Source: Mesotaenium endlicherianum
Taxonomy: Eukaryota
NCBI GenBank assembly: GCA_009602735.1
Contig: WELA01000853.1
Coordinates: 205,967-246,264, forward strand
DNA: 40,298 bases
Direction: 5' to 3'
Shown: positions 1-36,806 of the stretch, in pieces
How positions within the stretch are numbered: position 1 is the first letter of the stretch
Layout: each line of letters opens with the position of its first letter
The notes under the pieces: model-generated
Databases searched by the model: none
Told to the model about the DNA's origin: nothing
What the model saw: only the letters and a program-made list of their open reading frames with translations
Translations under genes and position numbers: made by a program

Positions 1-12
1 TGATTCATTACA
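1..12 (-). repeat. First 12 nt of the chromovirus 3' LTR
   Basis: tgattcattaca is identical to 8231-8242. It reads TGTAATGAATCA on the minus strand, directly after a purine-rich tract. Confidence 0.8.
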
Positions 13-27
13 ATCCCTCCAACTTAA
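13..27 (-). promoter_or_regulatory. Polypurine tract (3' PPT)
   Basis: Minus strand TTAAGTTGGAGGGAT abuts the TG of the 3' LTR. Confidence 0.75.
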
Positions 28-124: not shown

Positions 125-1801
125 TTAAGGGGTTGTTCCTGGGGCTTCAGGGTCAGGAGACGGAAATCTGGACCTAGATCTGGACAGCCCTCTAGGCCTG
201 TCAGCTGGCCTTCTAAAGAACCCTGTTTGCTCTAAAGTTGGCCCTCGAGGAGAACGGAGGATGGTGGCCTGCTCTTCAACCACTTGGGTGTTGATTCCCA
301 CATAGACAGGCATTCCAGTAGGATGCTGAAATACATTGGCTAGAGGTACATGCCCCTGAGCGGAGGGGGAGGCTGGCATACCTCTGGCCCACCCGCGTGT
401 CCCTCTTCTGGCACCCCTGTCCTCTGGGGAATCCTGCCTGTGTCTGCTGCCCAGTACAGTCAGATTAGCTTCTTCCCCTGCTTGGGCAGGTGGGCTGGGG
501 TCGCGAGCGCGGGGTCCAGTTGTCGCCATAACGGGGATCACATTCCACACCCCTGATCGTGGTTCTTTAGGAAGTGCCACTGCCTGTCCCTGGGTATCCT
601 GAGTACCTGCTGCTGATGCTTCTCCTCTGCCTTGTTGTTCTTCCTCATCCTCCTCATCCTCCTCCTCGGAAAGAGTAGGGGTCTCGTCCACTAAGTCGTC
701 CTGCTCCCTAGTAGACATGGAGTAGTCTACCGACCTCCCTTTCTCAGGGCGCGCTGGAGGTTGCTTGGCCTTCAGCCTACTGGTATCAATCCGGCCTGCA
801 TTCTTTGCCCATTTGACAAAGGCATGCTTTCCCTTAGAGAAGTAGTCTCTTCCCCTCCTCCTATGTTCCTTGGTCTCTGCATTCATATTGCTCAGGCATC
901 CATTCAGCCTGGGGTCCCAAGGGGCAATGTGAGGTGGTAGGATGAGATAGCCGTCTAGGCCATAGTGGAAGTCATCCGGTTGGGCTCGGTCACACTCCTG
1001 CTTCTTATTTGTGACGGTCATCCACCTCCAGTCTGTTGGCTGCTGGTAGTACTGGGGTCCGTGCTCAGCCTTCCTCAGTTTACACGGGAACCAGTGGGGA
1101 GAGAACATCTGCTGTCCTGCTTCCCTGGCCAAGTACTCCCAGCTCCTTCTCTCAACTTCATTGTAAGCTGGCAGGAGTGTGAGGTAGAATACCGTATCCT
1201 TAAAGCTATCGGGCCGCATGCTCACCATCCGGATGAGTCTCTGATCTTTCACTATTCCCGGTATGGGGACCGGCTTGTCCTCTGAATCATGTGCGAGATA
1301 CCGGGCCTGCTCCGCTGTATAGCCCACCATCTTAGCATAATCTTTGTAAAGGACCACGCCGGTGTGTGTTTCGATGTACCTATCCAGTGCTGTAGCTCCT
1401 TCCTTCTGTAGCAGTGTTGTCTGTTCCAGCCTGTTGATCTCCTGGGCTGCCAGCAATGCTTCCTTCAGGTTATCGAAGTTTTGGCCACCCACCACAGTAT
1501 ACCTGTAAGTGGCCAAGCTCTTCTGTCTGTCCGCTTCAATCTTTTTCCTTTTCTCCTCTTCTGCCGCTGCCGCTTCTTCTTGCTGTTTCTTCTGTCTCTC
1601 CTCCTCAGCCTTCCTGAGGTTTTCCGCTTCCTGATCCTTCTTCCTCTGTGCCTCTTCTGCCGCCTCTTGTTGTTTGCGGACCCTTTCTTGTTCTCTCCTG
1701 GTGAGGGACGTCGCCGCCAGCTCCTTCTGGTATTGCTCCATTGTCCTCCTGGCTTCTTCTGCCTTGCGCTTTCTGTCCTCCTTTTGTGTGGTGGGCGCCA
1801 T
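125..1801 (-). CDS. Accessory ORF3 of the chromovirus (about 558 aa): N-terminal coiled coil, aromatic-rich globular-looking core, acidic/disordered C-terminus; function unknown
   Basis: Uninterrupted 1.7-kb ORF in the same sense as gag/pol, between the pol stop and the PPT. Likely start ATG at 1801 (MAPTTQK...), directly after a splice acceptor. No transmembrane-length hydrophobic run seen. Confidence 0.85.
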   Translation of the reverse strand: MAPTTQKEDRKRKAEEARRTMEQYQKELAATSLTRREQERVRKQQEAAEEAQRKKDQEAENLRKAEEERQKKQQEEAAAAEEEKRKKIEADRQKSLATYRYTVVGGQNFDNLKEALLAAQEINRLEQTTLLQKEGATALDRYIETHTGVVLYKDYAKMVGYTAEQARYLAHDSEDKPVPIPGIVKDQRLIRMVSMRPDSFKDTVFYLTLLPAYNEVERRSWEYLAREAGQQMFSPHWFPCKLRKAEHGPQYYQQPTDWRWMTVTNKKQECDRAQPDDFHYGLDGYLILPPHIAPWDPRLNGCLSNMNAETKEHRRRGRDYFSKGKHAFVKWAKNAGRIDTSRLKAKQPPARPEKGRSVDYSMSTREQDDLVDETPTLSEEEDEEDEEEQQGRGEASAAGTQDTQGQAVALPKEPRSGVWNVIPVMATTGPRARDPSPPAQAGEEANLTVLGSRHRQDSPEDRGARRGTRGWARGMPASPSAQGHVPLANVFQHPTGMPVYVGINTQVVEEQATILRSPRGPTLEQTGFFRRPADRPRGLSRSRSRFPSPDPEAPGTTP

Positions 1802-1802
1802 C

Positions 1803-1832
1803 CTGCACATGTAACCAGGGCACAAGTTAGTA
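1803..1832 (-). promoter_or_regulatory. Branch point plus 3' splice acceptor in front of ORF3
   Basis: Minus strand TACTAAC (1832-1826) ...TACATGTGCAG|G ATG, with AG at 1804-1803 and ATG at 1801-1799. Confidence 0.7.
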
Positions 1833-2130
1833 GGATATGGACCTTTGTCATAGGGATTGCAGGAAGTATGTTAGTATTAGTATAGTGGCTTCGCTGCTGT
1901 TTACCTTACAGGATGATTGTTAAAAGTTGACGTAGTTGCGATGCACTACACATAAACGTATGAGTGTGTTTTAGGGTGAGTTAAGTGATGTAGTGTTATG
2001 CGAGGCCCTTTTTCCTTCTGCTCAAGGTGCGTTATGTGGGCCAGGCTGTCCCCTCTGTCATTATGTTGACACTTAGGGTTCACGTAACTGTTCTTTTATC
2101 GCTCTCGCTCACTAACTGTCATATATTTTC

Positions 2131-2143
2131 CCCTCCAACTTAA
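2131..2143 (-). promoter_or_regulatory. Second (internal) PPT copy
   Basis: ccctccaacttaa is identical to 15-27 and lies about 80 nt downstream of the pol stop. Confidence 0.65.
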
Positions 2144-2155
2144 ATGGAGACAGGA

Positions 2156-2220
2156 CCGCCTGTCACCTTCCCGTGTCAACTGAAATGNCCGCCTGTCACC
2201 TTCCCAAGTCAACTGACATG
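2156..2220. repeat. Two 32-nt tandem units separated by an N (possibly a collapsed array)
   Basis: ccgcctgtcaccttcccgtgtcaactgaaatg N ccgcctgtcaccttcccaagtcaactgacatg. Confidence 0.8.
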
Positions 2221-2224
2221 ACAG

Positions 2225-5094
2225 TTATGGAGGGACTCCAGCGGCCTGAAGGTGGAACCGTGTCATCGCCCCTTTGGCATTGGTCAAGTGGTTCTTAAAC
2301 TCCCAAGTGTCCCCAGAGGCATCATAACCCTTCCATCGAATGAGGTATTTCATGACATATTTAGACGATCGACGGACGGAGCGAGCGTCTAAAATCTCAT
2401 CGACCTCATATTCCTCAGGGTCGCCGTCCCGGACAGCGGGGACCGGTCCCGGTTGGACAGGGAACCGACTTGTGAACAGTGTATCACCTTTGATATACGG
2501 TTCCAGGAAGGAGATATTAAAGACCGGGTGCCCCTTGTATTCAGCTGACATGTTCAGTTTGTAAGCATTCTGACCGACACGACGGACCACCGAATATGGA
2601 CCGACCCAGACAGGGCCAAGCTTTTTCTTGACCACACCAGGGAGGTACAGGTGCTGAGAATGCAGTTTGACTAAATCCCCCTTGGAAAATGTCAGTTCCC
2701 GACGGTGTTGATTAGCGTATTTTTGTTGGTTTTCTTGGGCCGTGTGCAAGTTTCGTTGGACTTCTGACAGGGTGTCAGCAAACTCCTGAGTTAACTGGAG
2801 GGAGACCGGGTTGTCAATCCCTTCAGGGTGAGTTAAAGATTCCCCTAGCACATCTAGAGGAGACTTAGGGACTCTACCCAGGCTGAGTTCAAAAGGAGTT
2901 TTGCCCGTTGACGCGTGCACCGCACTGTTGACCGCAAACTGAATTTGAGGCAACAGGTCATCCCAATTATCTTGTTTTTGGTTAATATATGCTCTCAGCA
3001 CCTCCTGCAGAACTCGGTTAGTTCTTTCAGTCTGCCCATCAGTCTGAGGGTGGTTTGCTGTGCTGAGCAGCTGTTTGACTCCCATTAACCCCATTAAAGC
3101 TCTCCAGAACTTAGAGGTGAATTTTGAGTCTCTGTCTGAGATGATATTAGAAGGGAGCCCATGTTGGCATACTACATGGTTGTAAAACTGTCTCGCTGTT
3201 TCGAGTGCAGTCACTTTGACAGTTGTGGGGATAAAAATGACCATTTTTGTCAGTTTATCCACGACTACCAGTATTGAATCATGCCCGTTGGCAGTTCTTG
3301 GTAGTGAGACCACCCAGTCCATGGATATAGTTTCCCAGCGTCCCGCTGGGATGGGTAGCGGTTGCAAGAGACCTCCGGGTGGTGTGTGCCGAGACTTATT
3401 TCTCTGACACTGGTCACAGGACTTGACATATTTCAAGACCTCCCGGGGTAACCCCTCCCAATGATAATGTTTTGCCAGTTTGCCAACAGTTTTGGCCTGC
3501 CCCAAATGTCCACCCAGGAGACTGTCATGAGCTTGACTCAGTAAGAGAGACCTTATTTCCAAATTATTAGGAATGACCAGCTTCAGCCTGCCTGAAGTGG
3601 TTTCAGTCACCCAGACCCCTCCCTTGAGCTTATACCCGAGTGCGGTAGCACGACACATACCAGTAGTGGGGCTGGGCTCAAATGTTGGGTCAGAAAGGTA
3701 GGCTTTCCTAAGTTGTTCAAGGAAGGACTTTTTCACCTTTAGTGAAGTGAGTGCACACAGGACTTTATCTACAGTATGCTGACTAAAGTTCCTTTCTTGC
3801 AAGTCAGGTCTTCTAGAGAGTGCATCAGCAGGATTCAACTTCCCTGGTTTGTAGTCGATCTGGACTTGGAACTGCTCCAGCATCTGGCTCCAGCGGTTCT
3901 CCCTCCTCGACAGCTTGGACTTCTTCTGAAAGTGGGTCAGAGCTAGATGATCTGTAATCACCTTAAAAGCTTTACCATGTAAGTATGCTCTCCACTGTTT
4001 GAGTACATGAATGATAGCTAGCAGCTCTTTATCATGCACTGAGTAATTAATCTCCGCTGGATTAAATTTCATAGACTCATACAACACAGGATGCCACTCC
4101 TGCCGTACCTTACCATCCTTTGTGGTTTTGTCAGCAGGCTGCAACAAAATAGCACCCATGGCAAAATCAGAGGCATCAGTAACCACCTGCACCGGTTTGC
4201 TGGGGTCATACACGGCTAGCACTGGGGCAGAACAAAGGGCATCTTTAAGGGTCTGGAAGGCAGCCTGCTGCTCTTCCCCCCACACATACCCGATGTCTTT
4301 CTTAGTAAGGTCAGTCAGTTTACTGGCCTTTGTGGAATAATTCTCAATAAATCTCCTATAGTAGTTAGCCAACCCGAGGAAGGATCTAACTTCAGAGACA
4401 GACTGTGGTACTGGCCAGTCCCTTATGGTCTGGACTTTCTTAGGATCCACACTGATGCCCTCTTTACTGACAACGTGGCCTAAGAATTCAATACTTTCCT
4501 TAAAGAAATCACACTTGCTCATTTTAGCATACAAGTGATTTTTCCGCAGAGTGTCCAGCACTTTCTTTAAGTGTTCAGTGTGCTGAGCTTCATCTTTAGA
4601 GAAAATTAAAATATCATCCAGGAAAACTTTCACAAACTTATCCAAATAAGGCCTGAAAATGTCATTCATAGCACCCATAAAGGTAGCAGGAGCATTAGTC
4701 AGTCCAAATGGCATCACGTTGAACTCATAGTGTCCATAACGTGTGCGGAAAGCAGTCTTGTGTTCATCCCCCTCAGCAATTCTGATTTGATGATAACCAC
4801 TCTTGAGATCTATCTTACTGAACACCTTAGCGCCAGACAGGGTATCAAGCAAGTCCTCGATTCTGGGTAAAGCATACTTGTTCTTTACTGTAATTCTGTT
4901 CAGGGCTCTGTAATCCACACACATCCGCATACTGCCATCCTTTTTCTTAACAAATAGGATAGGTGCGCCGTACGGTGATTTACTGGGAGAAATGTAACCA
5001 TTTTCCTCCAGCTCTGCAATCTGTGTTTTCAACTCCTCACTCTCCAAATAAGACAAGCCATACGTGCGTTGCCAGGGTGGCTGGCTACCAGGTA
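2225..5094 (-). CDS. pol: pol: reverse transcriptase, RNase H, integrase, chromodomain
   Basis: [55 protein letters not shown]. RNase H: TDASD, ELLA, TDH, ADALSR. Integrase: HHCC (H..GHLG..C..CQ), D,D,E (SMDW, SDRD, GQTER), GPY. Chromodomain: [19 protein letters not shown]. Confidence 0.97.
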
Positions 5095-6033
5095 TAAATC
5101 AATCCTATGATCTACTTCCCGCTTAGGGGGTAGTCCTGGAGGCATATTAAACACTTCCGCGTACTGAGCAACAATGTTTGCAGCAGTAGGGTGTTCCGGA
5201 GGGTTTACCTTTTTCTCAACCACTTCTTCAGGTTGAGGAGGTACCTCTCTTAGCAGCAGACAGAACATTCTGTCTTCCTTCTGGTTCCAGCTTTTGACGA
5301 ACTCCATTGCATTCAGCAACTTGCATCCTTCTGGAAGCCTCTTCTTTTCCTTCATTTGCCATCCACACAGGACAAGAGGAAGAGCACTGGTGGGTGCCAA
5401 GTCAGTCTGCCCATCACTGGCTCCTCTCACTTTAACTGTACCTCTGCTCCAACACACTTCAGCTTGATGTCTATTAAGCCAGGACCTGCCTAGCACGAGA
5501 TCATAAAAGCCAGTGTTGAGTACCTCAAATGTAAGCGTTTCAGTTAGAACTGCAATGCCAGAACCTAACTGGACCTCAATAGGCTTGGTTATAACTCCTC
5601 CCGGGATACTTGAGGCATCTCCAAGGAATATTTTTCTATTCCCTTGGGTGACAGTAGGCAGCCTTAGCCGCTTAACTAAGTCCTTGTGAATAAAAGTATG
5701 TGACGCCCCTCCGTCAACAAATGCCCTCACCTTCCTACCTGCAATCATGCAATGCAGTAGGATAGGGGGGACTGTCTTTTCCTGACTTTCGCATTGTTCT
5801 CCTGACGTAGCAAAGAAATGTTGGACATCAGGTGGAACAAGAGCATCCAGAGTGTGCACTCTCTGGACGTCTATATTACTGATGGTCTCCTTTATCTGTT
5901 TGTCAGGCATGCATAGTGAATCCAGTTCAGCAGGACCCATAATACCTGCTACGAGGGCAGCTAGTGACGACTCACTATCTCTAGCATCCTCACAGTCAGT
6001 AGACTGGATTACTGACTGTTGCTGTCTTTTAAA
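5095..6033 (-). CDS. pol: pol N-terminal part: aspartic protease, joined to RT across an apparent 1-nt deletion near 5095
   Basis: [12 protein letters not shown] and [10 protein letters not shown] protease motifs, then [16 protein letters not shown]. Restoring one base (TTA ATA CCT) gives the typical [20 protein letters not shown] linker in the RT frame. Confidence 0.9.
5992..6033 (-). promoter_or_regulatory. Programmed -1 ribosomal frameshift signal (gag to pol)
   Basis: Slippery heptamer T TTA AAA (6033-6027) in the gag frame, a 7-nt spacer, then a perfect 10-bp stem ACAGTCAGTA/TACTGACTGT with an 8-nt loop. The pol frame is -1 and open from 6054. Confidence 0.85.
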
Positions 6034-7487
6034 GGCTGGTCTTTTCTCTCGACCTTAGGCAGGTGCTTGACCGGACACTGTTCTCTGTAGTGGCCTTTCT
6101 GCTGACAATGGTAGCAAGTAGATTTTGCTGAGGCTGGTCTCGGCTTAGTCCTACCACCACCCCTTCCATAGCCACCTCGAGAGGGACCACCTCTACCTCT
6201 AGACTGAATAGCATTGTACTCATACTCATATTCATCACCCTGATTATCCTCAGCCTGGTCTCCTTCAACTGCATTGTAGGAACCGTGGGGCTTTTTGACA
6301 ATCTTAGACACCAAAGCGTTACTCTGGCGCTTGTGATTGAACTGCTGCTGATCCCAGGCGTCAGCATCCTGGATCAAGTCAGCCAGTTTCTCATACTTTT
6401 TCTCAGCAAAATGACCAGAGACCTCGGATTTCAAGCCATACCTGAAGTATGCTATCCTATACCGTTCTGGCAAATCAGGCTGCTTCATCATGTTCTCTTG
6501 GAACTTTTGAGCAAACTCAGCAACTGAAGTGGTCTGCTTCAGTGTCAGGGAGATCATCGCATAGATAGCTTTCTCCTGCTGGTTGATGACATCAAACTTC
6601 TCATGCAACTTCTCGACAAACTCTACCCACGTAGGGTCACCGAGTTGCCGAGCCTTACGCTCTTCCTTCCAGTAAAGCCACCAGTCTGCGGCACTGCCTT
6701 TCAGTAGCGCACCGGTGTGCCTGACCTTCTCGTAATCTTGCAGTTCTGGGTAGTTCTCCAGCCACTGCTCAACATCCGCGAGAAACTTGATCAGGTAATA
6801 TTTTCTGTTTCCCTCAGGATCATAGTCCTGGGGAGGTTTCGGCTTGGGCTTACTAGGCCCTCGGCCACCACCACTAGTGGTGTGAGACCCCAGTTGGTCT
6901 CTGTCCCGGAGTAGGGACATTATGATTCTTTTGTCCTCCTGCTGGGACTGATACATGGTCGCCATTTGCGACTGCATCTGAACGAACAATGCTCCCAAGT
7001 CTACATTTTGGGGTGGTAGATTAGCAAATGCAGCAGCAGCATTGGCATCTACTCGCTGAGTAGTGTCCTCAACAATCCCTCTTGCTCCTGCAGCAGCAAT
7101 TCCTGCCGCATTCAGCCGGTCACGTATTTGACCTAGGGGTACATTGAGTTGTACGGCAGGAGGTGGGTTCAGAACATTGGCCCTTGATGCCATAAGTTCT
7201 TCAACAGTGCGCTCGTCAGCTGGCTGTCCTTCCCTCCTTTGTATATCTTCAGCGGCCTTTGCTACTTGTTCAGCTTCTAGTCTGGCTATCTCCTCCTCAG
7301 CTTGCTGAGCTGCGACTGAGGCAATAGCAGCTGCCTCATCTGCAGCCTCCCTAGCTGCAGTATCCGCTACTGCTTCCGAATAGGTACGGTTTCCCGCTAC
7401 ATGGCTTTCCGCCTGGTTTTCGACATTCTCGTTATCCTGGTTCTCCATGTCTCGGGAGTTGCTAGTTTGAGACCTTGTCCTTACCAT
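6009..7487 (-). CDS. gag: gag (capsid plus CCHC nucleocapsid), 492 aa
   Basis: LLKGSAADWW, TWVEFVEKLHEKF, LKQTTSVAEFAQKF, YFRYGLK, an RGG tract and the CYHCQQKGHYREQC zinc knuckle. Starts 21 nt after the PBS. Confidence 0.95.
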   Translation of the reverse strand: MVRTRSQTSNSRDMENQDNENVENQAESHVAGNRTYSEAVADTAAREAADEAAAIASVAAQQAEEEIARLEAEQVAKAAEDIQRREGQPADERTVEELMASRANVLNPPPAVQLNVPLGQIRDRLNAAGIAAAGARGIVEDTTQRVDANAAAAFANLPPQNVDLGALFVQMQSQMATMYQSQQEDKRIIMSLLRDRDQLGSHTTSGGGRGPSKPKPKPPQDYDPEGNRKYYLIKFLADVEQWLENYPELQDYEKVRHTGALLKGSAADWWLYWKEERKARQLGDPTWVEFVEKLHEKFDVINQQEKAIYAMISLTLKQTTSVAEFAQKFQENMMKQPDLPERYRIAYFRYGLKSEVSGHFAEKKYEKLADLIQDADAWDQQQFNHKRQSNALVSKIVKKPHGSYNAVEGDQAEDNQGDEYEYEYNAIQSRGRGGPSRGGYGRGGGRTKPRPASAKSTCYHCQQKGHYREQCPVKHLPKVERKDQPLKDSNSQ

Positions 7488-7507: not shown

Positions 7508-7520
7508 TGCTCCGATACCA
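7508..7520 (-). promoter_or_regulatory. Primer binding site, tRNA-iMet type
   Basis: Minus strand TGGTATCGGAGCA, 1 nt after the LTR end; one difference from the plant consensus TGGTATCAGAGC. Confidence 0.9.
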
Positions 7521-7521
7521 C

Positions 7522-8242
7522 TGAAATGAATCGACTTACCAAATAGGCGATTAACAATTAATAAAGATCTTTATATCAGCAAGTAATCTTTATGGTATTT
7601 TCCGTTAACTGGTTAAACGGCAAAGGACAACACACTAGCAGTGAATAATACTCGTAAGTCAAATGCGAGTAAACTAGCATCAATAATGCAAATCAGTAAA
7701 CTCATACATAAGCAAGGTTAGAAGACAGTGCGTATCAATGGCTTCTCGCCTTGGATTCAGATCTCTCTCAGTAAGCTGTACAAGAGAGTTGGCCTCGTTT
7801 CCGAATGCCGAACTCGAGAGCAATGCCTAGCATATGTACATGGAATGAGATTACTGTTCAACGGTCAGTGCGATGGCACCGCCTACCCGGGAGTTAACCA
7901 CGTTGGTAGGACCTCGGTTAACCAAATCCACCGCCATCTCCCATCATCCCGAATAGCCATCCATCATAGGGATGTCATCTGGCTATTCATCTAGCATATC
8001 GCACTTAGATGATATCAAGGCAGTTCGCTGCTACCGAGTACGGAAGTCAGCTTGTTGTCAAAAGAATGTGTCAGCAAGCTGACTTATATGGACTTTCAGC
8101 CTGCTGCTTTCGACTGAGTCATTAAACTGATAATTATGTAAAGTCCAGCAGACTGACTATTAACTAAAGTTCAGCAAGCTGATCTTAATTAACTATTACA
8201 TTTAAATGAATATTATATCCACTGATATACTGATTCATTACA
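7522..8242 (-). repeat. 5' LTR of the chromovirus (721 bp)
   Basis: Minus strand TGTAATGAA...TTCATTTCA (TG...CA with a short terminal inverted repeat). Bounded by the PBS and by the 12-nt match to the window start. Confidence 0.88.
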
Positions 8243-8971
8243 TTGAGCATGACAAGCATGACTGGGATCTGGCCCTGCCATGGCTGGTTATGGGTTACAG
8301 ATTTAACAAGCAGGTTGCCTTGGCGAATTACTTGCCATATCAAATACTGTTTGGTAGAAGTCCAGTAATGCCTTGCAACATCAAGCAAGAGATTGAACAG
8401 GTGAAAGACCTGGACAGCCCTGATGAACTGTTAAAATGTGATGGTGCGCCGTAAGGCGTTATTTGAGCGCATGATGCCGGCTGCACTAGACAATCTGAAA
8501 ATTGCACAGAAAAGAGATACGCAGCGTTACGCCAGGACGCGAGACGGGAGCTACCGCCTGCAGATGACGCAGATTCAAGAAGGAGACTTTGTCTACCGCA
8601 AGCGCCAGACCAAGACCTCCATCGACACCAGTTCAGGCGCAGTGATCTTACGCGTGAAACATGCGTTTGACAATGGTGTGTTAGAAGTGGAAGGTTCTGA
8701 TGGTAAAACCATGAGAGACCACATGCAGAATTGCTCGCTATGCCATTTGCCGAATATTGATCCTACAGTTAGGGTTGTGCTCGAGGAATTGGTGCCAGCC
8801 ACGCCTTGTGCCAGCTGCAAAGTGCTGGATGATCAGGAAGCAATGGTAACTTGCGATAAGTGTGGTGCCCGTTGGCACACTTTCTGCATTGGCGAGGAAG
8901 AAATTATGGCAGGACGATGGGAATGTCCTGATTGCCTTCCTAAAACCCCTAGCCGCAGGGCTGGAAAATAA
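8243..8971 (+). pseudogene. Integrase C-terminal half plus PHD finger; frameshift near 8435
   Basis: DWDLALPWLVMGYRF...PYQILFGRSP, then ALDNLKIAQKRD..RYA and EGDFVY. Ends in C-x2-C...C-x2-C-x4-H-x2-C...W-x-C-x2-C (8807-8935). One extra A at 8433-8436 splits the two ORFs. Confidence 0.88.
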
Positions 8972-9006: not shown

Positions 9007-9018
9007 GAAAGGGAGGGG
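9007..9018 (+). promoter_or_regulatory. Polypurine tract of the PHD-Gypsy
   Basis: GAAAGGGAGGGG immediately followed by TGTAAG. Confidence 0.85.
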
Positions 9019-9322
9019 TGTAAGAGGAATTAAGGCAAGCCAAGTATTTTTAAAATTTTTGCTAAAGTCTTAGGATAAGCAGATGGCGAGAGCTGGGTGA
9101 CGGAGAACGTTGCCCTGAGTGTTGGTCATGGTTGCATGGTGCAAGTTCAGGAGCCCAGGGATGGGTTAACCCTGGTAAGGCTTGTAACCGACACACGTGC
9201 GAAGGTCGATCGACCATGTTTGCCCACACGAGAGGAGGGCCACCGACACATCCACCAGGTCGAAGACACACGTGCTGAAAGGCTACGCACTTGTCGAGGG
9301 ACCGACACTGTTAGGCACGACA
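9019..9322 (+). repeat. Direct repeat A1 (304 bp, TGT...ACA), start of the 3' LTR
   Basis: Follows the PPT; roughly 90% identical by eye to 10555-10859. Confidence 0.9.
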
Positions 9323-10554: not shown

Positions 10555-10859
10555 TGTAAGAGGAATTAAGGCAAGGCAAGTATTTTCTAATGTTTCTGCT
10601 AAGTCTTAGGATAAGCAGATGGTGAGAGCTGGGTGACGGAGAACGTCGCCCTGAGTTGTTGGTCAGGGTTGCATGGTGCAAGTTCAGGAGCCCAGGGATG
10701 GGTTAACCTTGGTAAGGCTTGTCACCGACACACGTGCGAAGGTCGATCGACCATGTTTGCCCACACGTGAGGAGGGCCACCGACACATCGACCAGGTCGA
10801 AGGCACACGTGCTGGAAGGCTACGCACGTGCCGAGGGATTGACACTGTTAGGCACGACA
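10555..10859 (+). repeat. Direct repeat A2 (305 bp, TGT...ACA)
   Basis: Near-identical to 9019-9322; similarity stops exactly at ...ggcacgaca. Confidence 0.9.
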
Positions 10860-11048: not shown

Positions 11049-13380
11049 ACGGGTTTGCAACGTATAAAGGGGAAGAATGAAGAAAAGGGTTGAGACTGAC
11101 GCAGGAGGCAATATAAATTCTCATGGAAGACTTTGTACTGTCAACGAGGTATCTAACTTGGTTTCAGCTTTTCAAATTGGCATCAATTAATATTACTGCT
11201 TTCGATTCTGATTTCCTGAAGAGATATACTATAACACCACATCAATTAATAGATGTAGGTTCAGAAGGTCGACTATAGTATACTTGGGGTTCATCTTGTT
11301 TCACTGATTGGTACAGGGCATACTTTTGTTTACACTAATCCTCATACATACTATTTCTGATTCTTCAAGCACCTCCTGCCAATCATCTTTTGAAGGTCCC
11401 GTGGGTAGTTATGGCTGCTCAAAATTGTGGATTTTTGAGACTGAAGTGAGGGGTAGGTGCAAGTCGAGTTTTATAGACAACAGCAGCATGTCGAACGCTG
11501 GCCTTTGACCTGTGCAAATAAAATCCATCAATATGTGCATACTATTGATCCTACAGAACTGAGCTTGTAAAGGTCTTTCGTGCAGTGTTGTACCCACTGT
11601 ATCAACATAGTGGGTTTTTAAGTGGAAGGACATGACCTTGGTTCAGTATTCTTACTCAAGTGATGGTGCGACTTATTTGTGGCGAGTCATTGACGTCTTG
11701 TTGCAACCTTTTGCATTGATATGAAAAAAGGTGTGGCCTTCTGAGATCATAATTAATATATTAGGCTCTACCCATGTTGCTTCTCAATGGTAGGGCATTG
11801 TGTCAAAAACTGTCCACTTTCAAGCGTGCCGAGTGTCAATCCCTGGTGGATGTAGACATGGTGCTCAGAACGTTGCACAGTGTCAAGAATGTCACACATG
11901 TCGCTGTAAGCGCATCAATAAGGAGCAAACACGAGGTGTTCTTGAGAAGGCTTGCCACGGGATTTCTTCTGGTCTCGACCTTCACCTACTAAGATTTTGA
12001 GGACCCAAAGAATCTGTCCATATTTCTTTCTTGGAATGCAAACATCCAAGAGTTGTATCTGTCTATCTCCATATCGTCTATTAGCAGTCGTATGGGCTGG
12101 CGCAGCTATCAGGAAGCTCTGGAAAAATTGGACTTTAGCCAGCAAGTGAATATGAAGAAGCTCGTACTTGAGTATTACGATCACAGATTCACCAGCATTC
12201 CTGTCAGCACAACTTTAAAACAGCTCAGGAATCTCCAGGAGCTTAGCATTTGTCTAAATAGATTGACCATTGAGGCACCCTTGCCCCCGTGGCTGGCAAA
12301 CTTCCCTGCATTTGTAGGATTTGACTACCATAGTTGCTCTCATTCTCCCGGCAAGTTGCTATTGGACTCTCTTTAAAAAGCGAAGGGTCTGAAGAAGGTG
12401 GCAAGAACGTGTCCTCCGATGAGTGCCCTTTTGTTATTGACGGCAAAGTTCTTGTTTTTACTCAAGCTCAAACTCTATTCTTTGACCCAAAAGTTTGATT
12501 ATTATCTGTATCTTGTTGCTGCTGCAGTCTGGCGCACAGCAGATGGCCGACATCTTCAGGGAAAAACATGTGACATCTCTCTCCATTACCTCCTATGACG
12601 AGTCTGGGTCAACCCCCTTCATGGAAACGTTACAGCCAAGCCCATACCTCAAGGATATGCACATTGTTGCTGATGCTATTCCCAAGCTGGAAGAACGACT
12701 ACCTCTTCTGGAGGACCTCACTTTAGCGACCATGGGTCCTGTGGCAATCCAGCCAAGCTATTTTGCCTTCACACCCAACTTGCGCTCTTTGAGTGTAACC
12801 CTCTGCAAAGAGGTTGCATGGCCTCGTCTCGAGTACCTCACCCACCTGACCTCCCTGACAGTGGAATTGTCTTGCAAGCATGGCCGACTTAGACTTTGAG
12901 GATCAAGATCAAGAGGAGCCCTTGCCGCAAGCACAAGAGTCCAAGTGGCGCATTGGCAAGGCAAGCACACCCGCCCTGCAGGTGCTGAGGCTGGGCTCTT
13001 GCATGTTCTCTATCTCATTGATGGCCTGCACGCGCTGGAGCGCCATGTAGCAGTCTCACTGCGCTGCTCATGTCGTAACAGGCAGATCTGGTATGACAGC
13101 TATGCTTAATATGCAGCTGGAGGGAGCCCCTGCGACATACTTCTGCCTGGCAGTGCCAGGCAGCTCTTTAAGGACACTAGGCGCTCTATCACAAGGCCGC
13201 TTGGGTCGTACCCTGCCTGCCCTCCAACAAGTGCAAGGTAGAAGTCTAGAAGACCTTGCAAATTATGGGCCTGCTTTATGGGCACATGTGAAGCAAAGTC
13301 GTTCGAGTGAAAGGTCGGGCGGTAAGTGAAGGGTGGTGTCAGAAATTGTGGGGGTTGACTACTGCTTCTGAGGGGAATAA
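11049..13380 (+). pseudogene. F-box/LRR-like paralogue 1 (F-box deleted, multiple stops and frameshifts)
   Basis: Exon 1 relic at 11049-11148 (ATG>ACG). Coding similarity resumes at 11813 (STFKRAECQS..KNVTHV), WRSYQEALEKLDFSQQVNMKKLVL. Donor at 12419 reads AT. Exon from 12528 has FAFTPNLRSL..VAWPRLEYLTHLTSLTVELS and ARQLFKDTRR. All align to paralogues 2 and 3. Confidence 0.85.
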
Positions 13381-26235: not shown

Positions 26236-28773
26236 CTACTGACTTGCAATTGTGCAACTGCCAGAACTTTCACTCACCCTCAATCCAACCACCGGAACTT
26301 TTGACATCACGCTCCGCGTGACTATGTGACCTTCACCTTGCAAGTGTCCCCTCCGCATATGCCCCAAAGGCAGGCTCTAGAGGCCTCGGAGTTGGGCGCC
26401 TGGTATCTTTGAACAGCTGTCTAGCGTCAGCAGGCTGCAGCCTGCGGCAGGGGCTCCCTCCAGCTGCATAATTGGCATAGCTGTCATACCAAGCTTGCCT
26501 GTAGTCACACGCGCAGCGGAGTGAGACTGCCACATGGCGCTCCAGCAAGAGCAGGCCACCAATGAGGCTAAGCAGCATGCAAGAGTCCAGCCTCAACACC
26601 TGCAGGGCAGGTGTGGATTCCTTCCCGATGTGCCACTTGGGCCCTTGCACTTGCGACAAGATCTCCTCTAGATCCTCAAATTCCGAGTCAGGGTCACGCT
26701 TTCGAGACAATTCAACCGTCAGGGAGGTTAGGTGTGTGAGGTACTCAAGACGAGGCCATGCTACCTCTCTGAAGAGGGTCACATTCAAAGAGAGCAGGTT
26801 GGGTGTGTATGCAAAAATGTCTGGCTGAATTGCTACAGGTCCCATGGGCTCCAGAATGAGATCCTCCAAAAGAAATAGTTGATCTTCAAGCTTGGGAATA
26901 GCGTCGGCAACAATGCACATGTCCTTGATATTGGGGCCCAGCCGCAACGTGTCCATGAAAGGAGTCGGCTCATCTTTGTCAAAGAAGGTGATTGAGAGAG
27001 ACGTCACTTTGTGCCCCTTGAAGATCTTTCTCATCTTCCTTGCGCCAGACTGCAGCAACGACAAGACACGGAGAAAACAGATTCAGACTTCTAACTTAAT
27101 GTGATGAGGTTTGAGCTTGAGCTAAAGTAAGAAAACAAGTGCACCATAAGAAAGAAAAGCAAGACTTGGCTGAAGCTCTGGAGTACTTACCGGAGGACAC
27201 GTCATGGCAACCAATTTGAGACCCTTCATCTTGAGGAGAGACTCCAACAGCAACTTGCTGGGAGGCTCAGACCAATCATCGTACTCAAATCCTGCAAAGC
27301 TTGGGAAATCTGCTAGCCAGAGGGGCAAAGGTGCCTCCATTGTTGGCCTCCTTAGAGAGACGTGAAGCTCCTCGAGATTCTTAAGCTGTCTTAAGGTTGT
27401 GATGACAGGGATGCAGGTAAACCCGGGATAGTAGTAATCAAGTACGAGCTTCTTTAGATTCACTTGCTTGCTAAGTCCAAATTCTCTAATGCTCTTTGAT
27501 AGCTGCGCCAGTTGTTCTGTTCAAAGGAAGTTGCTGCTCTGGACATAGACAGATGCAGCTCCTGGACGTCGGTGTTAAGGGAAAGAAACAAGGACAGGTT
27601 TTCCAGGTCCTTGACTTTGCTATCAAAGGTGAAGTCAAAATACGTGATCATAGGAAACTCGGTGGCAAGCTTTCTCACGAACACCGAGTAGTGGCTTCTT
27701 ATTGGTGCATCAAAGGAGACATGCGTGACATTCTTGGCAGTGTGCAGCGTTTTGAGCAACACGTTTACATCCAGCATGGATTGACAATAAGCGCGCGTGA
27801 AAGTGGAGCGCAGGACGATGCACCACCTTGTGAACACACTGCTCACCCTCTTGACCTGATCCATCGATAGTTCACTAATCTGTGTGTGTGGTGGCTCTGC
27901 GGCAGGCTTGACACAAACTGATCGCAGGATGACTTTCAGAATGTCAGCGGGCAAATCTGCAATGCTTAATGTCGATGCTTGTGAGGAAGAGTTTCCCTGT
28001 TCCTGTGGACAACAAAAAGGTTGTGACAGACAATAATAGTGAGTCCTAATTCTTGACATAAAGAAGGATTCAGTTGTCACAAATAAGCTGCAGCAACACA
28101 TAAGCTCATCAGAAGGTGGGAGGTTGCAATGTGCCTGGATGGGATGTGGAAGAATTTAACCAGGTCAGAGAAGCCAGCCACAACTTAAATCCCCCTTTCT
28201 TTGACACTAGCCATTCAAAATTTCCAACATTAAGCAGGCACATTTAGCCTCATTCTGCAAAATTATTCAACATTTTCAGCAAATTGCGACAATCGTAACC
28301 CGGTAGTAAGACTTCAATATCAAGTGTGCTGTATATGATGCATCACCATATGGCAGTGATAAATTCTTTTGGATGTTAGACTCTGCCTTATACATGTACT
28401 CAAATGAATATGTGCACTAATTTTGTAGTTGCCTTCTGATAGACATGTGCCGTGGTGTGGATACATCAGTACCATAACCTTCTTTTTTTGATTTTACAAA
28501 AGTCACTCCAAGCTTGTGCTTTGATGATCCCCTGCTATGGTCCTAAGTTCCGCGTAGAAGCCATAAATATGGCTAACCAAGAGACCTCATGACACATTTA
28601 TTGACCTGCAGCTAAGCTGGCCATGCAGGCATATAAAGATGCAATCTTTGTTGCTGACATCCTGTTGTACGTACCTTCTTCACATCATTCCTTCTTTCAT
28701 GAGGTTTCAGCATGCAAGCTTATCCGCTCTTAGTCTTGCCCTCCATCTTCTCCTTCAAATGCTTCACATCCAT
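26236..28773 (-). pseudogene. F-box/LRR-like paralogue 2; exons 28773-28675, 28002-27191, 27049 onward
   Basis: F-box-like SIADLPADILKVILRSV...VKRVSSVFTRW, then LRR-like units (NLEELHV, LLEDLIL, PNLLSLNV, THLTSLTV, PALQVLRL). In-frame TAA at 28722-28720 in exon 1 and a 1-nt deletion near 27473. Canonical GT-AG introns. Confidence 0.88.
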
Positions 28774-34273: not shown

Positions 34274-36806
34274 TTAATTGTCCTCGGAAGCAGATGTCCA
34301 GCTGCCAGAAATCTCACTATCTTCCTCACTCCAGCTGTCCGAGCCTCCACTCTCATTGCTCCCCTCCACAGCTTGGCGCCTTGTGTCTTTGAAGAGCTGC
34401 CTGGCACTGCCAGGTGGCACTTTGCAACAGCGGCTCCCTTTAGCTGCATATTGTCCACAGCTCTCATACCAGGTGTGATTGATTATCGCATGTGCAGCGC
34501 ATTGAGACTGCCACTTGGCACCCCAACGTGAAGAGGCCACCAACAAGGCAAAGTGGCATGCAGGAGTCCAGCTTCAGCACCTGCAGACTGCATTTGAGTG
34601 CCGCGGGGATGTGCCACTTGGGCTCTCCTGGCTGCACTGTGAGCTCCTCTGAGTCCTCAAACTCCGAGTCATAGTCATCATTGCGAGACAATGTCACAGA
34701 CAAATAGGTGAGCTGACTGAGGTACTTGAGATGGGGCCAAGCCACTTTTTGAAAGAGGTTGATATCCAATGAACGCAGGTTAGGCGTTAACGCAAAGAAG
34801 TCTGGCTGAATTGCCACTGGATATATGGGCTCCAAATTGAGATTCTCCAGGAGAGTTAAGGGATCTCCAATCTTGGGAATAGCATCAGCCTCGATGTTCA
34901 AAGTTTGAAGGTTGGGGCCAAACCGCATCGTGTCCATGAAGGGGGTCGGCTCTTCTTCCGGATCTTCGTCACTGGGGGAAATTATTAGACTCATCAGATG
35001 ACGGCTCCTGAAGATTTTGCCCATCTTCTTTACAATAAACTGCAACAAAAAGGAGCCAATGCAATCCAAATTACGTTTCAGGTGAGTAAGGTCTGAGCTC
35101 AATATAAGTAAGAGCTGGGAGAGCAAGTGCACCGTAGGAGCTAACAGCAACGTCTGGCTTAAGTTTTAGGGCGCTTATCGGAAGACACGTCACCTCAAGC
35201 TTCTTGAGACTCGTCATTTCTTGCAAAGACTTTATCAGCAAGTTGCTGGAGGAGTCTGATAGGTCGTCAAATGCAAATCGCACAAATGGCGGAAAATTTG
35301 CCAGCCACAGCGGCGAAGGTGTTGACATTGTCGACCTTGTCAGCAGGATATGAAGCTCCTGAAGATTTTTGATCTGTCGAAGAGTTTTACTGACTGGGAT
35401 GCGGGAGAAAAAGAAGGAGTCATAGCTGAAAACGAGCTTCTTCATATTCACTTGTCTGCTAAAGTTCATGTCCTCCACTGCCTTCTCGTAGCTGCGCCAA
35501 TCAGTGTGATGAGAGCAGGTGAAATCGGAAGGCAAGCGCAGATACAATTCTTGGATGTTTACGTTGAGGGAAAGTAACAAGGAAAGATTGTTGAGGTCCA
35601 TCACATTGCCACCAAAGTCAAGGGTAAAGAACGTGACCAGCGGAAATTCTATGGCAAGCCTCCTCACAAAAATCATGTGGCCATTTGTCAAAGGATCCCC
35701 TACTGAGACATGTGTCACATTGTTGACTTCATGCAGCCGCCGGAGCGCCACATCTACATCCTCAACAAAATGACAGGATGCTTTCTTGAAAGTTGAGCGC
35801 AATACATTGCACCACCTGGTGCACACACTGCTCACGTTCTTGACTTGAGCCATGGATAGATTTGGCGTCTGCCCAGACCGCTGCTCAGCAGCTGGGTGCA
35901 AACAAACTGACCGCAAAATGACCTTCAGAATGTAAGCAGGCATGTCAAAAGTACTGGAAGCTGATGTCCCTGAAGAAGAGCAGCTTTGGTCCTGGTACAA
36001 ACAAGGACAAAATGAACTTCAATAAGTAACCTCCATAGTGACTAATTTTAATTTTAAACAAAGACAACATCACCAGGCATTCTTCTGTCGAACGGTCTAA
36101 CATTGAGGAGGCAGCAGGAGTTAGAGCCTAATACAGTGAAATGACCTACAAAACAAGGCTGCGTTTTGTAATCAAAGTGGATGCAGAAAAAGTTTGCAAC
36201 ACTTTGCAAATGGCGTGCTCAACATATAAGCTGCACCGTCACTTGTGTAGAGACATTTTCTGTAATTACATATGACCTGATGATAGCATATGAGACCACT
36301 GAAGCTTTAACATATAGATTGATATACTCACAGTACTTCTATTGATGAATTAAGATCATACGCAGGTCAAGTGAGGCCAGTGTCAAATAGGCTCTATCTT
36401 GCACTTATTCCTTGCTAAACGTACCATCTCATAATAAGCCTCACAATCTTTACCAGTCGCTGCTCCACATATATAGACTTAATAGTTGCCACTCATAGTG
36501 ATTAGGAACAGGTTGGCAGCATGTTAGCTGATATAATACAACGAGATATGCCTTCAACCAGCACATGAACCAAAATATTGGTCCTACATATATGATTCTT
36601 GCATGGAAAGTCCTTGCCAGTATATCTAGTTGCATGTGTATATTACAGTTCTGAAGTCAGAATTGAACCAATTTACAAACAAATATAGATGCTGAAAGTT
36701 GGTATACATTTTCCACGCCGTGAAGCTTCTCATGAGAACTCGAAGTGTCTGCTTTGCCTTTCCTAGTCTTGCCCTTCATTTTCCCCTTTGATTTTTTCAA
36801 ATCCAT
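34274..36806 (-). pseudogene. F-box/LRR-like paralogue 3 (best preserved); exons 36806-36708, 35991-35179, 35039-34274
   Basis: Exon 1 MDLKKSKGKMKGKTRKGK... (99 nt, phase 0). F-box-like FDMPAYILKVILRSV...VKNVSSVCTRW, followed by LRR-like units. The donor at 35178 reads AT instead of GT, and a +1 frameshift near 34481 precedes WYES..ARQLFKDTRR. Confidence 0.85.

What the first reader, a model, noticed from the sequence alone, without database searches (positions are those of the whole stretch)
125..1801. Chromovirus with a large, intact, non-Env third ORF in the env position
Seen: a ~558-aa sense-strand ORF between pol and the PPT with no disabling lesion. It has a K/E/Q/R coiled coil (about aa 5-100), a W/Y/C/H-rich core (FSPHWFPCKL..DWRWM..HYGLDGYLILPPHIAPWDP) and an acidic/disordered tail, with no signal peptide or transmembrane segment. 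Established: env-like 3' ORFs are typical of Athila, SIRE and errantiviruses, and accessory ORFs of Tat/Ogre, while chromoviruses normally carry only gag-pol. Inference: this is an element-encoded soluble accessory protein I do not recognise, possibly an anti-silencing, targeting or movement factor.
Basis: partly seen in the sequence, partly recalled or inferred. Interest (0 to 1): 0.85.

Follow-up and report, generated by a model that had tools for sequence, protein, structure and literature searches.

The report
Orphan third gene in algal chromovirus
A high-copy retrotransposon, likely from a green alga close to land plants, carries an extra 558-amino-acid gene with no detectable relatives that is likely kept by selection and likely encodes a soluble nuclear helper rather than an envelope protein; extra genes in this position are known from other plant retrotransposon lineages, so the layout is not new but the protein appears to be.

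Summary
The ORF is real: 558 codons, sense strand, between pol and the 3' PPT/LTR of a chromodomain-bearing Ty3/Gypsy element. It has no signal peptide or transmembrane segment and no homologue in any search run. Contigs from five runs cover it. No frameshift inside it was listed, while indels occur in both flanks. Differences among copies are 9 synonymous of 13 (about 4 expected, P 0.003-0.007); differences private to this copy look neutral, 6 of 18. This copy has a frameshift in pol, so its own intact ORF3 proves little. New here: a branch-point heptamer and TGCAG|G acceptor sit directly before the ATG, suggesting env-style splicing; a duplicate PPT follows pol; and sister elements appear to lack the cassette. 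Three RNA-seq runs gave 816 reads on the element and none on most of ORF3 (278-1939). The premise is overstated: REXdb lists 3' sense extra ORFs in 18% of Tekay chromoviruses, though in none of the algal or non-seed-plant clades. The host is likely a zygnematophyte-like alga. Best reading: a selected, likely nuclear accessory protein; function untested. New variant of a known kind.

The parts
7522..8242 (-). 5' LTR, 721 nt, TG...CA
   Evidence: Its first 12 nt match window 12-1; PBS follows after one base
7534..7540 (-). Candidate 5' splice donor G|GTAAGT in U5, 20 nt before the PBS (use untested)
   Evidence: Only GGTAAGT on the element's sense strand; no read shows its use
7509..7520 (-). 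Primer binding site of tRNA-Met type (TGGTATCGGAGC)
   Evidence: tRNA identity is recalled, not tested
6009..7487 (-). gag (Ty3_capsid, Retrotrans_gag, zinc knuckle)
5991..6033 (-). Likely -1 ribosomal frameshift signal: T TTA AAA heptamer, 7-nt spacer, 10-bp hairpin
   Evidence: gag and protease frames overlap at 6054-6009
5029..6054 (-). Protease frame of pol; runs out of frame with RT through a one-base lesion near 5093 in this copy
   Evidence: a contig of X6 lacks the lesion (table 4)
2225..5098 (-). RT, RNase H, integrase, SH3 and chromodomain (aromatic-cage Y/W/Y present)
   Evidence: Pfam RVT_1, RT_RNaseH, Integrase_H2C2, rve, SH3_Tf2-1, Chromo 8e-08; cage read by eye against the recalled HP1 pattern
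2149..2214 (.). 33-nt tandem repeat, two copies, with TGACAG motifs
   Evidence: family D11
2131..2143 (-). Internal PPT copy, identical over 13 nt to the 3' PPT; sister elements diverge right after it into a TGT... sequence
   Evidence: loose ends at 2130 in X5, X7, X8 and X24
1901..1906 (-). Alternative local donor AG|GTAA, which would give a 102-nt 5'-UTR intron (untested)
1870..1876 (-). Upstream branch-point-like heptamer TACTAAC
1802..1832 (-). Branch-point heptamer TACTAAC (1832-1826) and acceptor TGCAG|G ending one base before the ORF3 ATG
   Evidence: 2 of the window's 4 TACTAAC lie here; strict composite P about 0.001, relaxed CTRAY P 0.04, post hoc
125..1801 (-). ORF3, 558 aa: charged helix aa 4-102 with RKRK and KRKK; aromatic core aa about 101-345; acidic patch 346-400 (net -12); P/G/S/R-rich disordered tail with RG and RS motifs
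   Evidence: selection signal
15..27 (-). 3' polypurine tract
1..12 (-). Start of the 3' LTR (rest lies outside the window)
   Evidence: X6 contig joint 8230 to 1

Best explanation
ORF3 is a third gene of a high-copy chromovirus-type LTR retrotransposon family, likely kept by purifying selection and likely translated from a spliced sub-genomic RNA, and its soluble product most likely acts in the nucleus as a trans-activating or anti-silencing helper of its own family. Shown: position, intact frame, no TM segment, presence across copies, synonymous excess among copies, splice-signal-like motifs. Inferred: splicing (about 0.55); nuclear import through RKRK and KRKK; the charged helix as a rigid spacer; the aromatic core as the module that binds element DNA or chromatin; the acidic patch as a recruiter of host factors. 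Also inferred: the cassette was gained late, downstream of an older PPT, by a lineage whose sisters seem to lack it. My odds are about 0.8 that it is a functional accessory protein and about 0.35 for this specific mechanism.
For: ORF far longer than chance. Covered by contigs in 5 of 5 contig runs laid (X6; X1, X5, X7, X8; X7 has a gap at about 658-803). One search lists 4 indels at 5% or more: 61, 66 and 1876 in the flanks, a minor one at 126 in the stop codon, none in 127-1801 (630-670 skipped in X1). Among-copy differences are 9 synonymous of 13, with 4.0-4.4 expected under context-matched nulls, P 0.003-0.007; copy-private ones are 6 of 18, P 0.23-0.37. X1 holds 826 of 7648 contigs under 90% identity, so the ORF3 region is old; a neutral frame stays stop-free in under 1% of simulations at 8% divergence or more. 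TACTAAC-N20-CAG|G-ATG resembles the spliced env-position gene of ATHILA and Bagy2. Architecture. Precedents for nuclear extra-ORF proteins: Grande GENE23, Tekay 5' ORF with predicted NLS; accessory TE proteins counteracting silencing.
Against: No function was tested and no homologue or fold supports one. Three poly(A) RNA-seq runs (one study, 6-12% of each read) laid 816 reads on the element and gave zero depth in bins 278-1939, with no splice joint to 1803. Most of those reads were 90-99% alike, so they come from older or sister copies. The selection test rests on 13 sites, some linked, taken from 40 displayed of 144 rows; I sorted them into shared and private by eye. Splice-motif P values are post hoc. 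NLS-like motifs inside a K/R-rich helix are expected by composition. Elements with the same pol end or the same LTR appear to exist without this cassette, so it is not essential.
Confidence: 0.38

Rival explanations
1. ORF3 is a functional RNA-binding helper. It is made from the spliced RNA and would promote export, stability or packaging of the unspliced genomic RNA, as Rev-like regulators do, or would suppress small-RNA silencing.
For: Splice signals imply that the genomic RNA must escape splicing. The tail has RG repeats at 462 and 469 and RSRS at 541. A dsRNA-binding-like fold was proposed for a Tekay extra-ORF protein (PMC11728184 abstract passage).
Against: The RG and RS motifs are short and lie in a low-complexity tail; no RNA-binding domain was detected; splicing itself is unshown.
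Confidence: 0.22
2. ORF3 is a passenger: a coding sequence captured from a host gene or another mobile element, still open because the family amplified recently, with no role for the element.
For: This copy is only about 1-2% from the family majority, and a neutral frame stays open 27-52% of the time at that distance. No transcripts seen. The host genome could not be searched. Sister elements appear to lack it.
Against: Synonymous excess among copies; indels confined to flanks; older copies at 80-84% identity exist (table 8); no donor gene found among 1.84 billion representatives.
Confidence: 0.17
3. ORF3 is an integration-targeting or nuclear-import adaptor that bridges the integrase-cDNA complex to host chromatin.
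For: Basic motifs and a long rigid helix; this copy sits inside another retrotransposon's integrase gene.
Against: The integrase already has a chromodomain with an intact cage, which would explain the nested insertion; no interaction data.
Confidence: 0.13
4. ORF3 is a highly divergent envelope, fusion or movement protein.
For: Env position, sense strand and a splice acceptor before the start.
Against: No hydrophobic segment (highest 19-residue hydropathy 0.73), charged N-terminus, 3 Cys, a single N-glycosylation sequon in the disordered tail, no Pfam, PDB or Foldseek match.
Confidence: 0.04

Closest known systems
Tekay chromovirus extra ORFs (REXdb eORF-3'F; Tekay 5' aORF)
   Same: Chromovirus with an extra sense ORF of 250 codons or more between pol and the 3' LTR (18% of 782 Tekay elements); a Tekay 5' ORF protein lacks known domains and has a predicted NLS.
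   Different: Tekay is reported only in seed plants. This element falls outside the nine angiosperm rows of the RT tree and keeps the aromatic cage. No sequence link to a Tekay ORF was found in the databases searched; the REXdb sequences themselves could not be read.
ATHILA ORF2 / Bagy2 / SIRE env-like genes
   Same: Sense ORF in the env position; ATHILA's and Bagy2's are made from spliced sub-genomic RNA.
   Different: Those hosts are non-chromovirus Gypsy or Copia elements, and some of the proteins have TM segments; ORF3 has none and does not match PF03078.
Chlamyvir and Tcn1 chromoviruses
   Same: Algal or non-seed-plant chromoviruses with an aromatic-cage chromodomain; tRNA-Met PBS in 41% of Chlamyvir; overlapping gag/pol frames in 60% of Tcn1.
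   Different: No extra ORF is tabulated for either (44 and 1500 elements). This element combines a tRNA-Met PBS with overlapping frames, the minority state in each.
Grande GENE23, Retand TRP28, VANC
   Same: Element-encoded accessory proteins that are nuclear, predicted to bind DNA, or anti-silencing: what ORF3 may work like.
   Different: GENE23 and TRP28 are antisense in Tat/Retand elements; VANC belongs to MuDR DNA transposons; ORF3 matches none of their Pfam models.

Membership tests
Ty3/Gypsy chromovirus | gag then PR-RT-RH-IN order with a chromodomain at the integrase C-terminus | tested here: met
Ty3/Gypsy chromovirus | LTRs with TG...CA ends, PBS and PPT | tested here: met
   only 12 nt of the 3' LTR are in the window, target-site duplication not visible
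Tekay clade | RT groups with seed-plant chromoviruses | tested here: not met
   nine angiosperm rows form a separate clade (SH-aLRT 100); quick tree, rows carry no clade labels
Chlamyvir clade | Phylogenetic grouping with labelled Chlamyvir RT/RH/IN | not testable with these tools
   REXdb FASTA too large to read; the element groups loosely (93) with Closterium and environmental rows
Chlamyvir clade | gag and pol separated by a single stop (80%) | tested here: not met
   Overlapping frames with a -1 slippery site
Tcn1 clade | Self-priming, no tRNA PBS (83%) | tested here: not met
   tRNA-Met-type PBS at 7520-7509
Env / env-like protein | Signal peptide and/or transmembrane segment | tested here: not met
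   Hydropathy scan only, maximum 0.73
Env / env-like protein | Expression from a spliced sub-genomic RNA | tested here: inconclusive
   Motifs present; no reads on 278-1939 and no joint
Known plant eORF domains (ATHILA ORF-1 PF03078, Transposase_28 PF04195, plant mobile domain PF10536, DUF390/601/1204/1633) | Pfam match | tested here: not met
   list
VANC-like anti-silencing factor | Sequence-specific demethylation or activation of cognate elements | not testable with these tools
   Needs expression and methylome data
Captured host gene | A non-TE parent gene in the host genome | tested here: inconclusive
   No host assembly; no homologue

The most novel reading that the evidence does not exclude
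An algal chromovirus independently evolved a complex-retrovirus layout: a new protein fold in the env slot, expressed by env-style splicing and bolted on behind the ancestral PPT and LTR start. It would act as a trans-regulator (Tat/Rev-like or anti-silencing) that let this subfamily out-amplify sister elements lacking it. It would be the first regulator of this kind shown in an algal LTR retrotransposon, with natural ORF3-less sisters as built-in controls.
Probability: 0.2. Interest if true: 0.75.

Novelty: new variant of a known kind. Interest (0 to 1): 0.45.

Why it matters
The function of extra ORFs in plant LTR retrotransposons is a long-standing open question (PMC7264820). This case extends sense-strand 3' accessory genes to chromoviruses of a likely streptophyte alga, where REXdb tabulates none. 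It adds an orphan protein with evidence of selection. It also offers an unusually testable setting: a young high-copy family with apparent sister elements that share either the pol end or the LTR but not the cassette. It does not show an envelope or a new class of element.

Tried and rejected
Homology, all blank: Pfam (only sub-threshold hits such as Borrelia_P83 on the charged helix); PHROGs (70, E 0.12 or worse); word-indexed search of the core among proteins of 306-977 aa (12; longer and shorter lengths not searched); phmmer of the core against 1.84 billion representatives (18, 0 hits); exact look-up; metagenome, viral and prokaryote contigs; PDB sequences (52, helix-composition hits at E 0.24 or worse); ESM Atlas (46, 67; small clusters are not covered). 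Single-sequence AlphaFold2 gave mean pLDDT 41.9 for the whole protein and 32.7 for the core, so the Foldseek blank (58) says nothing; VIA searches and complex prediction were not run for that reason. Distant chromovirus loci: 0 of 79 matched ORF3 by tblastn. Of the 24 with 1 kb or more after pol, the long ORFs were by my reading gag/pol of permuted contigs or low-complexity frames; at 38-64% best-segment pol identity they are too distant to date the gain. No RNA holder was listed by the run search. A donor right after the gag ATG (7485) was rejected because it would put that ATG out of frame with ORF3 (worked out by hand). L1 ORF1p, Ulp1 protease and zinc-finger resemblances were considered from memory and have no support. 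Earlier-finding look-ups by place and sequence were empty. Contig depths were not used as copy numbers.

Full report
Observation. The window's first 8.2 kb is one LTR retrotransposon on the minus strand: 5' LTR 8242-7522, tRNA-Met-type PBS 7520-7509 (tRNA identity recalled), gag 7487-6009, protease frame 6054-5029, RT-RNaseH-integrase-SH3-chromodomain 5098-2225, ORF3 1801-125, PPT 27-15 and the first 12 nt of the 3' LTR. A contig of run X6 joins the LTR start to 1-223, so the same LTR follows ORF3. Gag and pol overlap, with a T TTA AAA heptamer and a hairpin 7 nt downstream, a likely -1 frameshift. ORF3 is 558 aa. No simulation of 2000 reached its 581 open codons (maximum 407). This copy's pol has a one-base frameshift near 5093 that a contig of X6 lacks, so the copy is probably dead. 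It sits inside the integrase of another Gypsy-type element.

Protein anatomy. Residues 4-102 are a confident helix (pLDDT about 70-90). They are about half charged with almost no heptad hydrophobics, so a single alpha-helix is a better description than a coiled coil. Residues 101-345 have globular composition (31% hydrophobic, 15% F/W/Y/H, 3 Cys). Residues 346-400 are acidic (net -12), and 401-558 are P/G/S-rich with RG and RS motifs. The highest 19-residue hydropathy is 0.73, so there is no TM or signal segment. Every homology and fold search was blank or uninformative.

Host and clade. No host assembly is held. A neighbouring host F-box/LRR-like ORF has one homologue among 2603 candidates, from Mesotaenium, at 35%. 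In a quick RT-RNaseH tree of 58 rows, the element lies outside the nine angiosperm rows (SH-aLRT 100) and loosely (93) with three Closterium and eight environmental rows. Rows were the hits P0005-P0060 plus named ones that aligned over 380 aa; the careful search did not finish. Full-length pol hits reach about 50% identity. The host is therefore likely a zygnematophyte-like alga (inference), and the clade cannot be named without labelled references.

Is ORF3 a family feature under selection? Twenty of 24 listed runs hold the element or part of it, 16 with half its words or more; one of them may be the window's source. Contigs of X1, X5, X7 and X8 (four studies) and X6 cover ORF3 (X7 has a gap at about 658-803). 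X1 alone lays 7648 contigs, 826 of them under 90% alike, and its longest diverged pieces are 80-84% alike, several with gaps: a large family with old decayed members. Of four indels listed at 5% or more, three are in the flanks and one is a minor variant in the stop codon; none lies in 127-1801 (630-670 was skipped in X1). Of 144 substitution rows 40 were shown, 31 in ORF3. I classed 18 as private to this copy (nearly all depth differs in every covering run) and 13 as varying among copies. The varying sites are 9 synonymous and 4 not, against 4.0-4.4 expected under context-matched nulls (P 0.003-0.007). The private sites are 6 and 12, as neutral decay predicts; none creates a stop. A pol sample gave 13 synonymous of 24. 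The sample is small and partly linked, but the contrast is the one expected if replicating lineages keep the protein. One copy's intactness alone is weak: a neutral frame survives 1-2% divergence 27-52% of the time, but 8% less than 1% of the time.

How it is likely expressed. Two of the window's four TACTAAC heptamers lie in the 423-nt spacer, at 1876 and 1832. The second is followed 20 nt later by CAG|G and then the ATG. Chance for the strict composite is about 0.001 and for a relaxed CTRAY version 0.04, both post hoc. Candidate donors are G|GTAAGT in U5 (7540), which would skip the PBS and gag-pol as for env, or AG|GTAA at 1906, giving a short 5'-UTR intron behind an internal promoter. ATHILA's env-position ORF2 and Bagy2's are spliced in the first way (PMC7197481, passages; PMC7264820, parts 1-2 of 3). 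Against: three poly(A) runs of one study laid 238, 362 and 216 reads on the element, with zero depth in bins 278-1939 and no such joint. Only 46 of the 816 reads were 99% alike or better, so they mostly report older or sister copies.

How it was likely gained. A 13-nt copy of the PPT lies 80 nt after the pol stop. Contigs in X5, X7 and X8, and RNA reads in X24, follow the window up to this PPT and then diverge into a TG-starting sequence. In the DNA contigs it shares 13 nt with the window's next bases. Other contigs share the LTR and 3' PPT but diverge at about position 50. The simplest reading is a cassette added behind an ancestral PPT and LTR start, in a family of modular 3' ends. The rival is a central PPT, as described for EVADE, with a sister whose ORF3 is too diverged to map. 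Only 30 letters of each loose end were visible. None of 79 distant chromovirus loci matched ORF3.

Comparison with what is known. REXdb's summary table lists 3' sense extra ORFs in 18% of 782 Tekay chromoviruses, 74% of SIRE and 22% of Retand, and none for Chlamyvir (44), Tcn1 (1500), Galadriel, Reina, CRM or unclassified chromoviruses (PMC6317226: passages and supplements 4 and 5; supplements 1 and 3 were too large to read and could hold a relative). The same paper notes that such ORFs are usually unrelated to one another, so an orphan is the norm. A Tekay 5' ORF protein with a predicted NLS is described in PMC11728184 (passages). Retand TRP28 and Grande GENE23 and VANC (PMC13547354, passages) are functional analogues, not relatives. 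Eight literature searches showed no description of a third ORF in a streptophyte-algal chromovirus. The library is open-access only, and Steinbauerova 2011 was seen only as cited. Also seen with little bearing: passages of PMC2864245, PMC6696364, PMC2774666 and 10.1101/835561 and the abstract of 10.64898/2026.05.21.726589. An earlier scan note (e1-7335529) reports a parallel non-Env third ORF in a Euglena element; I did not test it.

Verdict. The feature is real and probably functional (about 0.8). I commit, at about 0.38, to a nuclear trans-activating or anti-silencing helper: basic motifs, a rigid charged helix, a folded core and an acidic patch fit that best, but none of those steps is shown. 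An RNA-binding regulator (0.22), a passenger (0.17), a targeting adaptor (0.13) and Env (0.04) follow. The layout is a known kind; the lineage and the protein are new. Interest 0.45.

Noticed in passing
window 8243-8971 (+): The chromovirus is inserted in the integrase gene of another Gypsy-type element whose integrase region ends in a PHD finger (Pfam PHD 6.7e-06; frames), followed by a PPT at about 9007-9018.
   Followed up: partly
window 9019-9322 and 10555-10859 (+): Two 305-nt TG...CA repeats, 93% alike and 1536 nt apart, directly after that PPT: either one 1.84-kb LTR with repeated ends or a short LTR plus a tandem non-autonomous unit.
   Followed up: no
window 11813-13184 (+), 26395-27953 (-), 34375-36018 (-): Three paralogous F-box/LRR-like host genes, 65-73% alike, with long unbroken coding stretches and some frame breaks; the one searched has a single homologue, from Mesotaenium.
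   Followed up: partly
window 2217-3324 and joint 3978-4138: RNA reads from about 90%-alike sister copies over the integrase end are mostly first-mate-minus, which would be antisense to the element in a usual stranded library; a GT..AG skip of 159 nt on the + strand appears in 3 reads of X23.
   Followed up: no
window 2055-2224: Five TGACAG/CTGTCA hexamers cluster around the internal PPT, and the sister sequence after the PPT has more; the motif resembles a TALE-homeodomain site (recalled), possibly an enhancer relic.
   Followed up: no
window 1970-2093: A 124-nt deletion variant of the pol-ORF3 spacer is present in all five contig runs laid; it leaves the internal PPT and the splice motifs in place.
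   Followed up: partly
window 7419 and 7522: Many RNA reads leave the element at the LTR end (7522) or just inside gag (7419) into fixed unrelated sequence: transcribed solo or truncated copies elsewhere in the genome.
   Followed up: no
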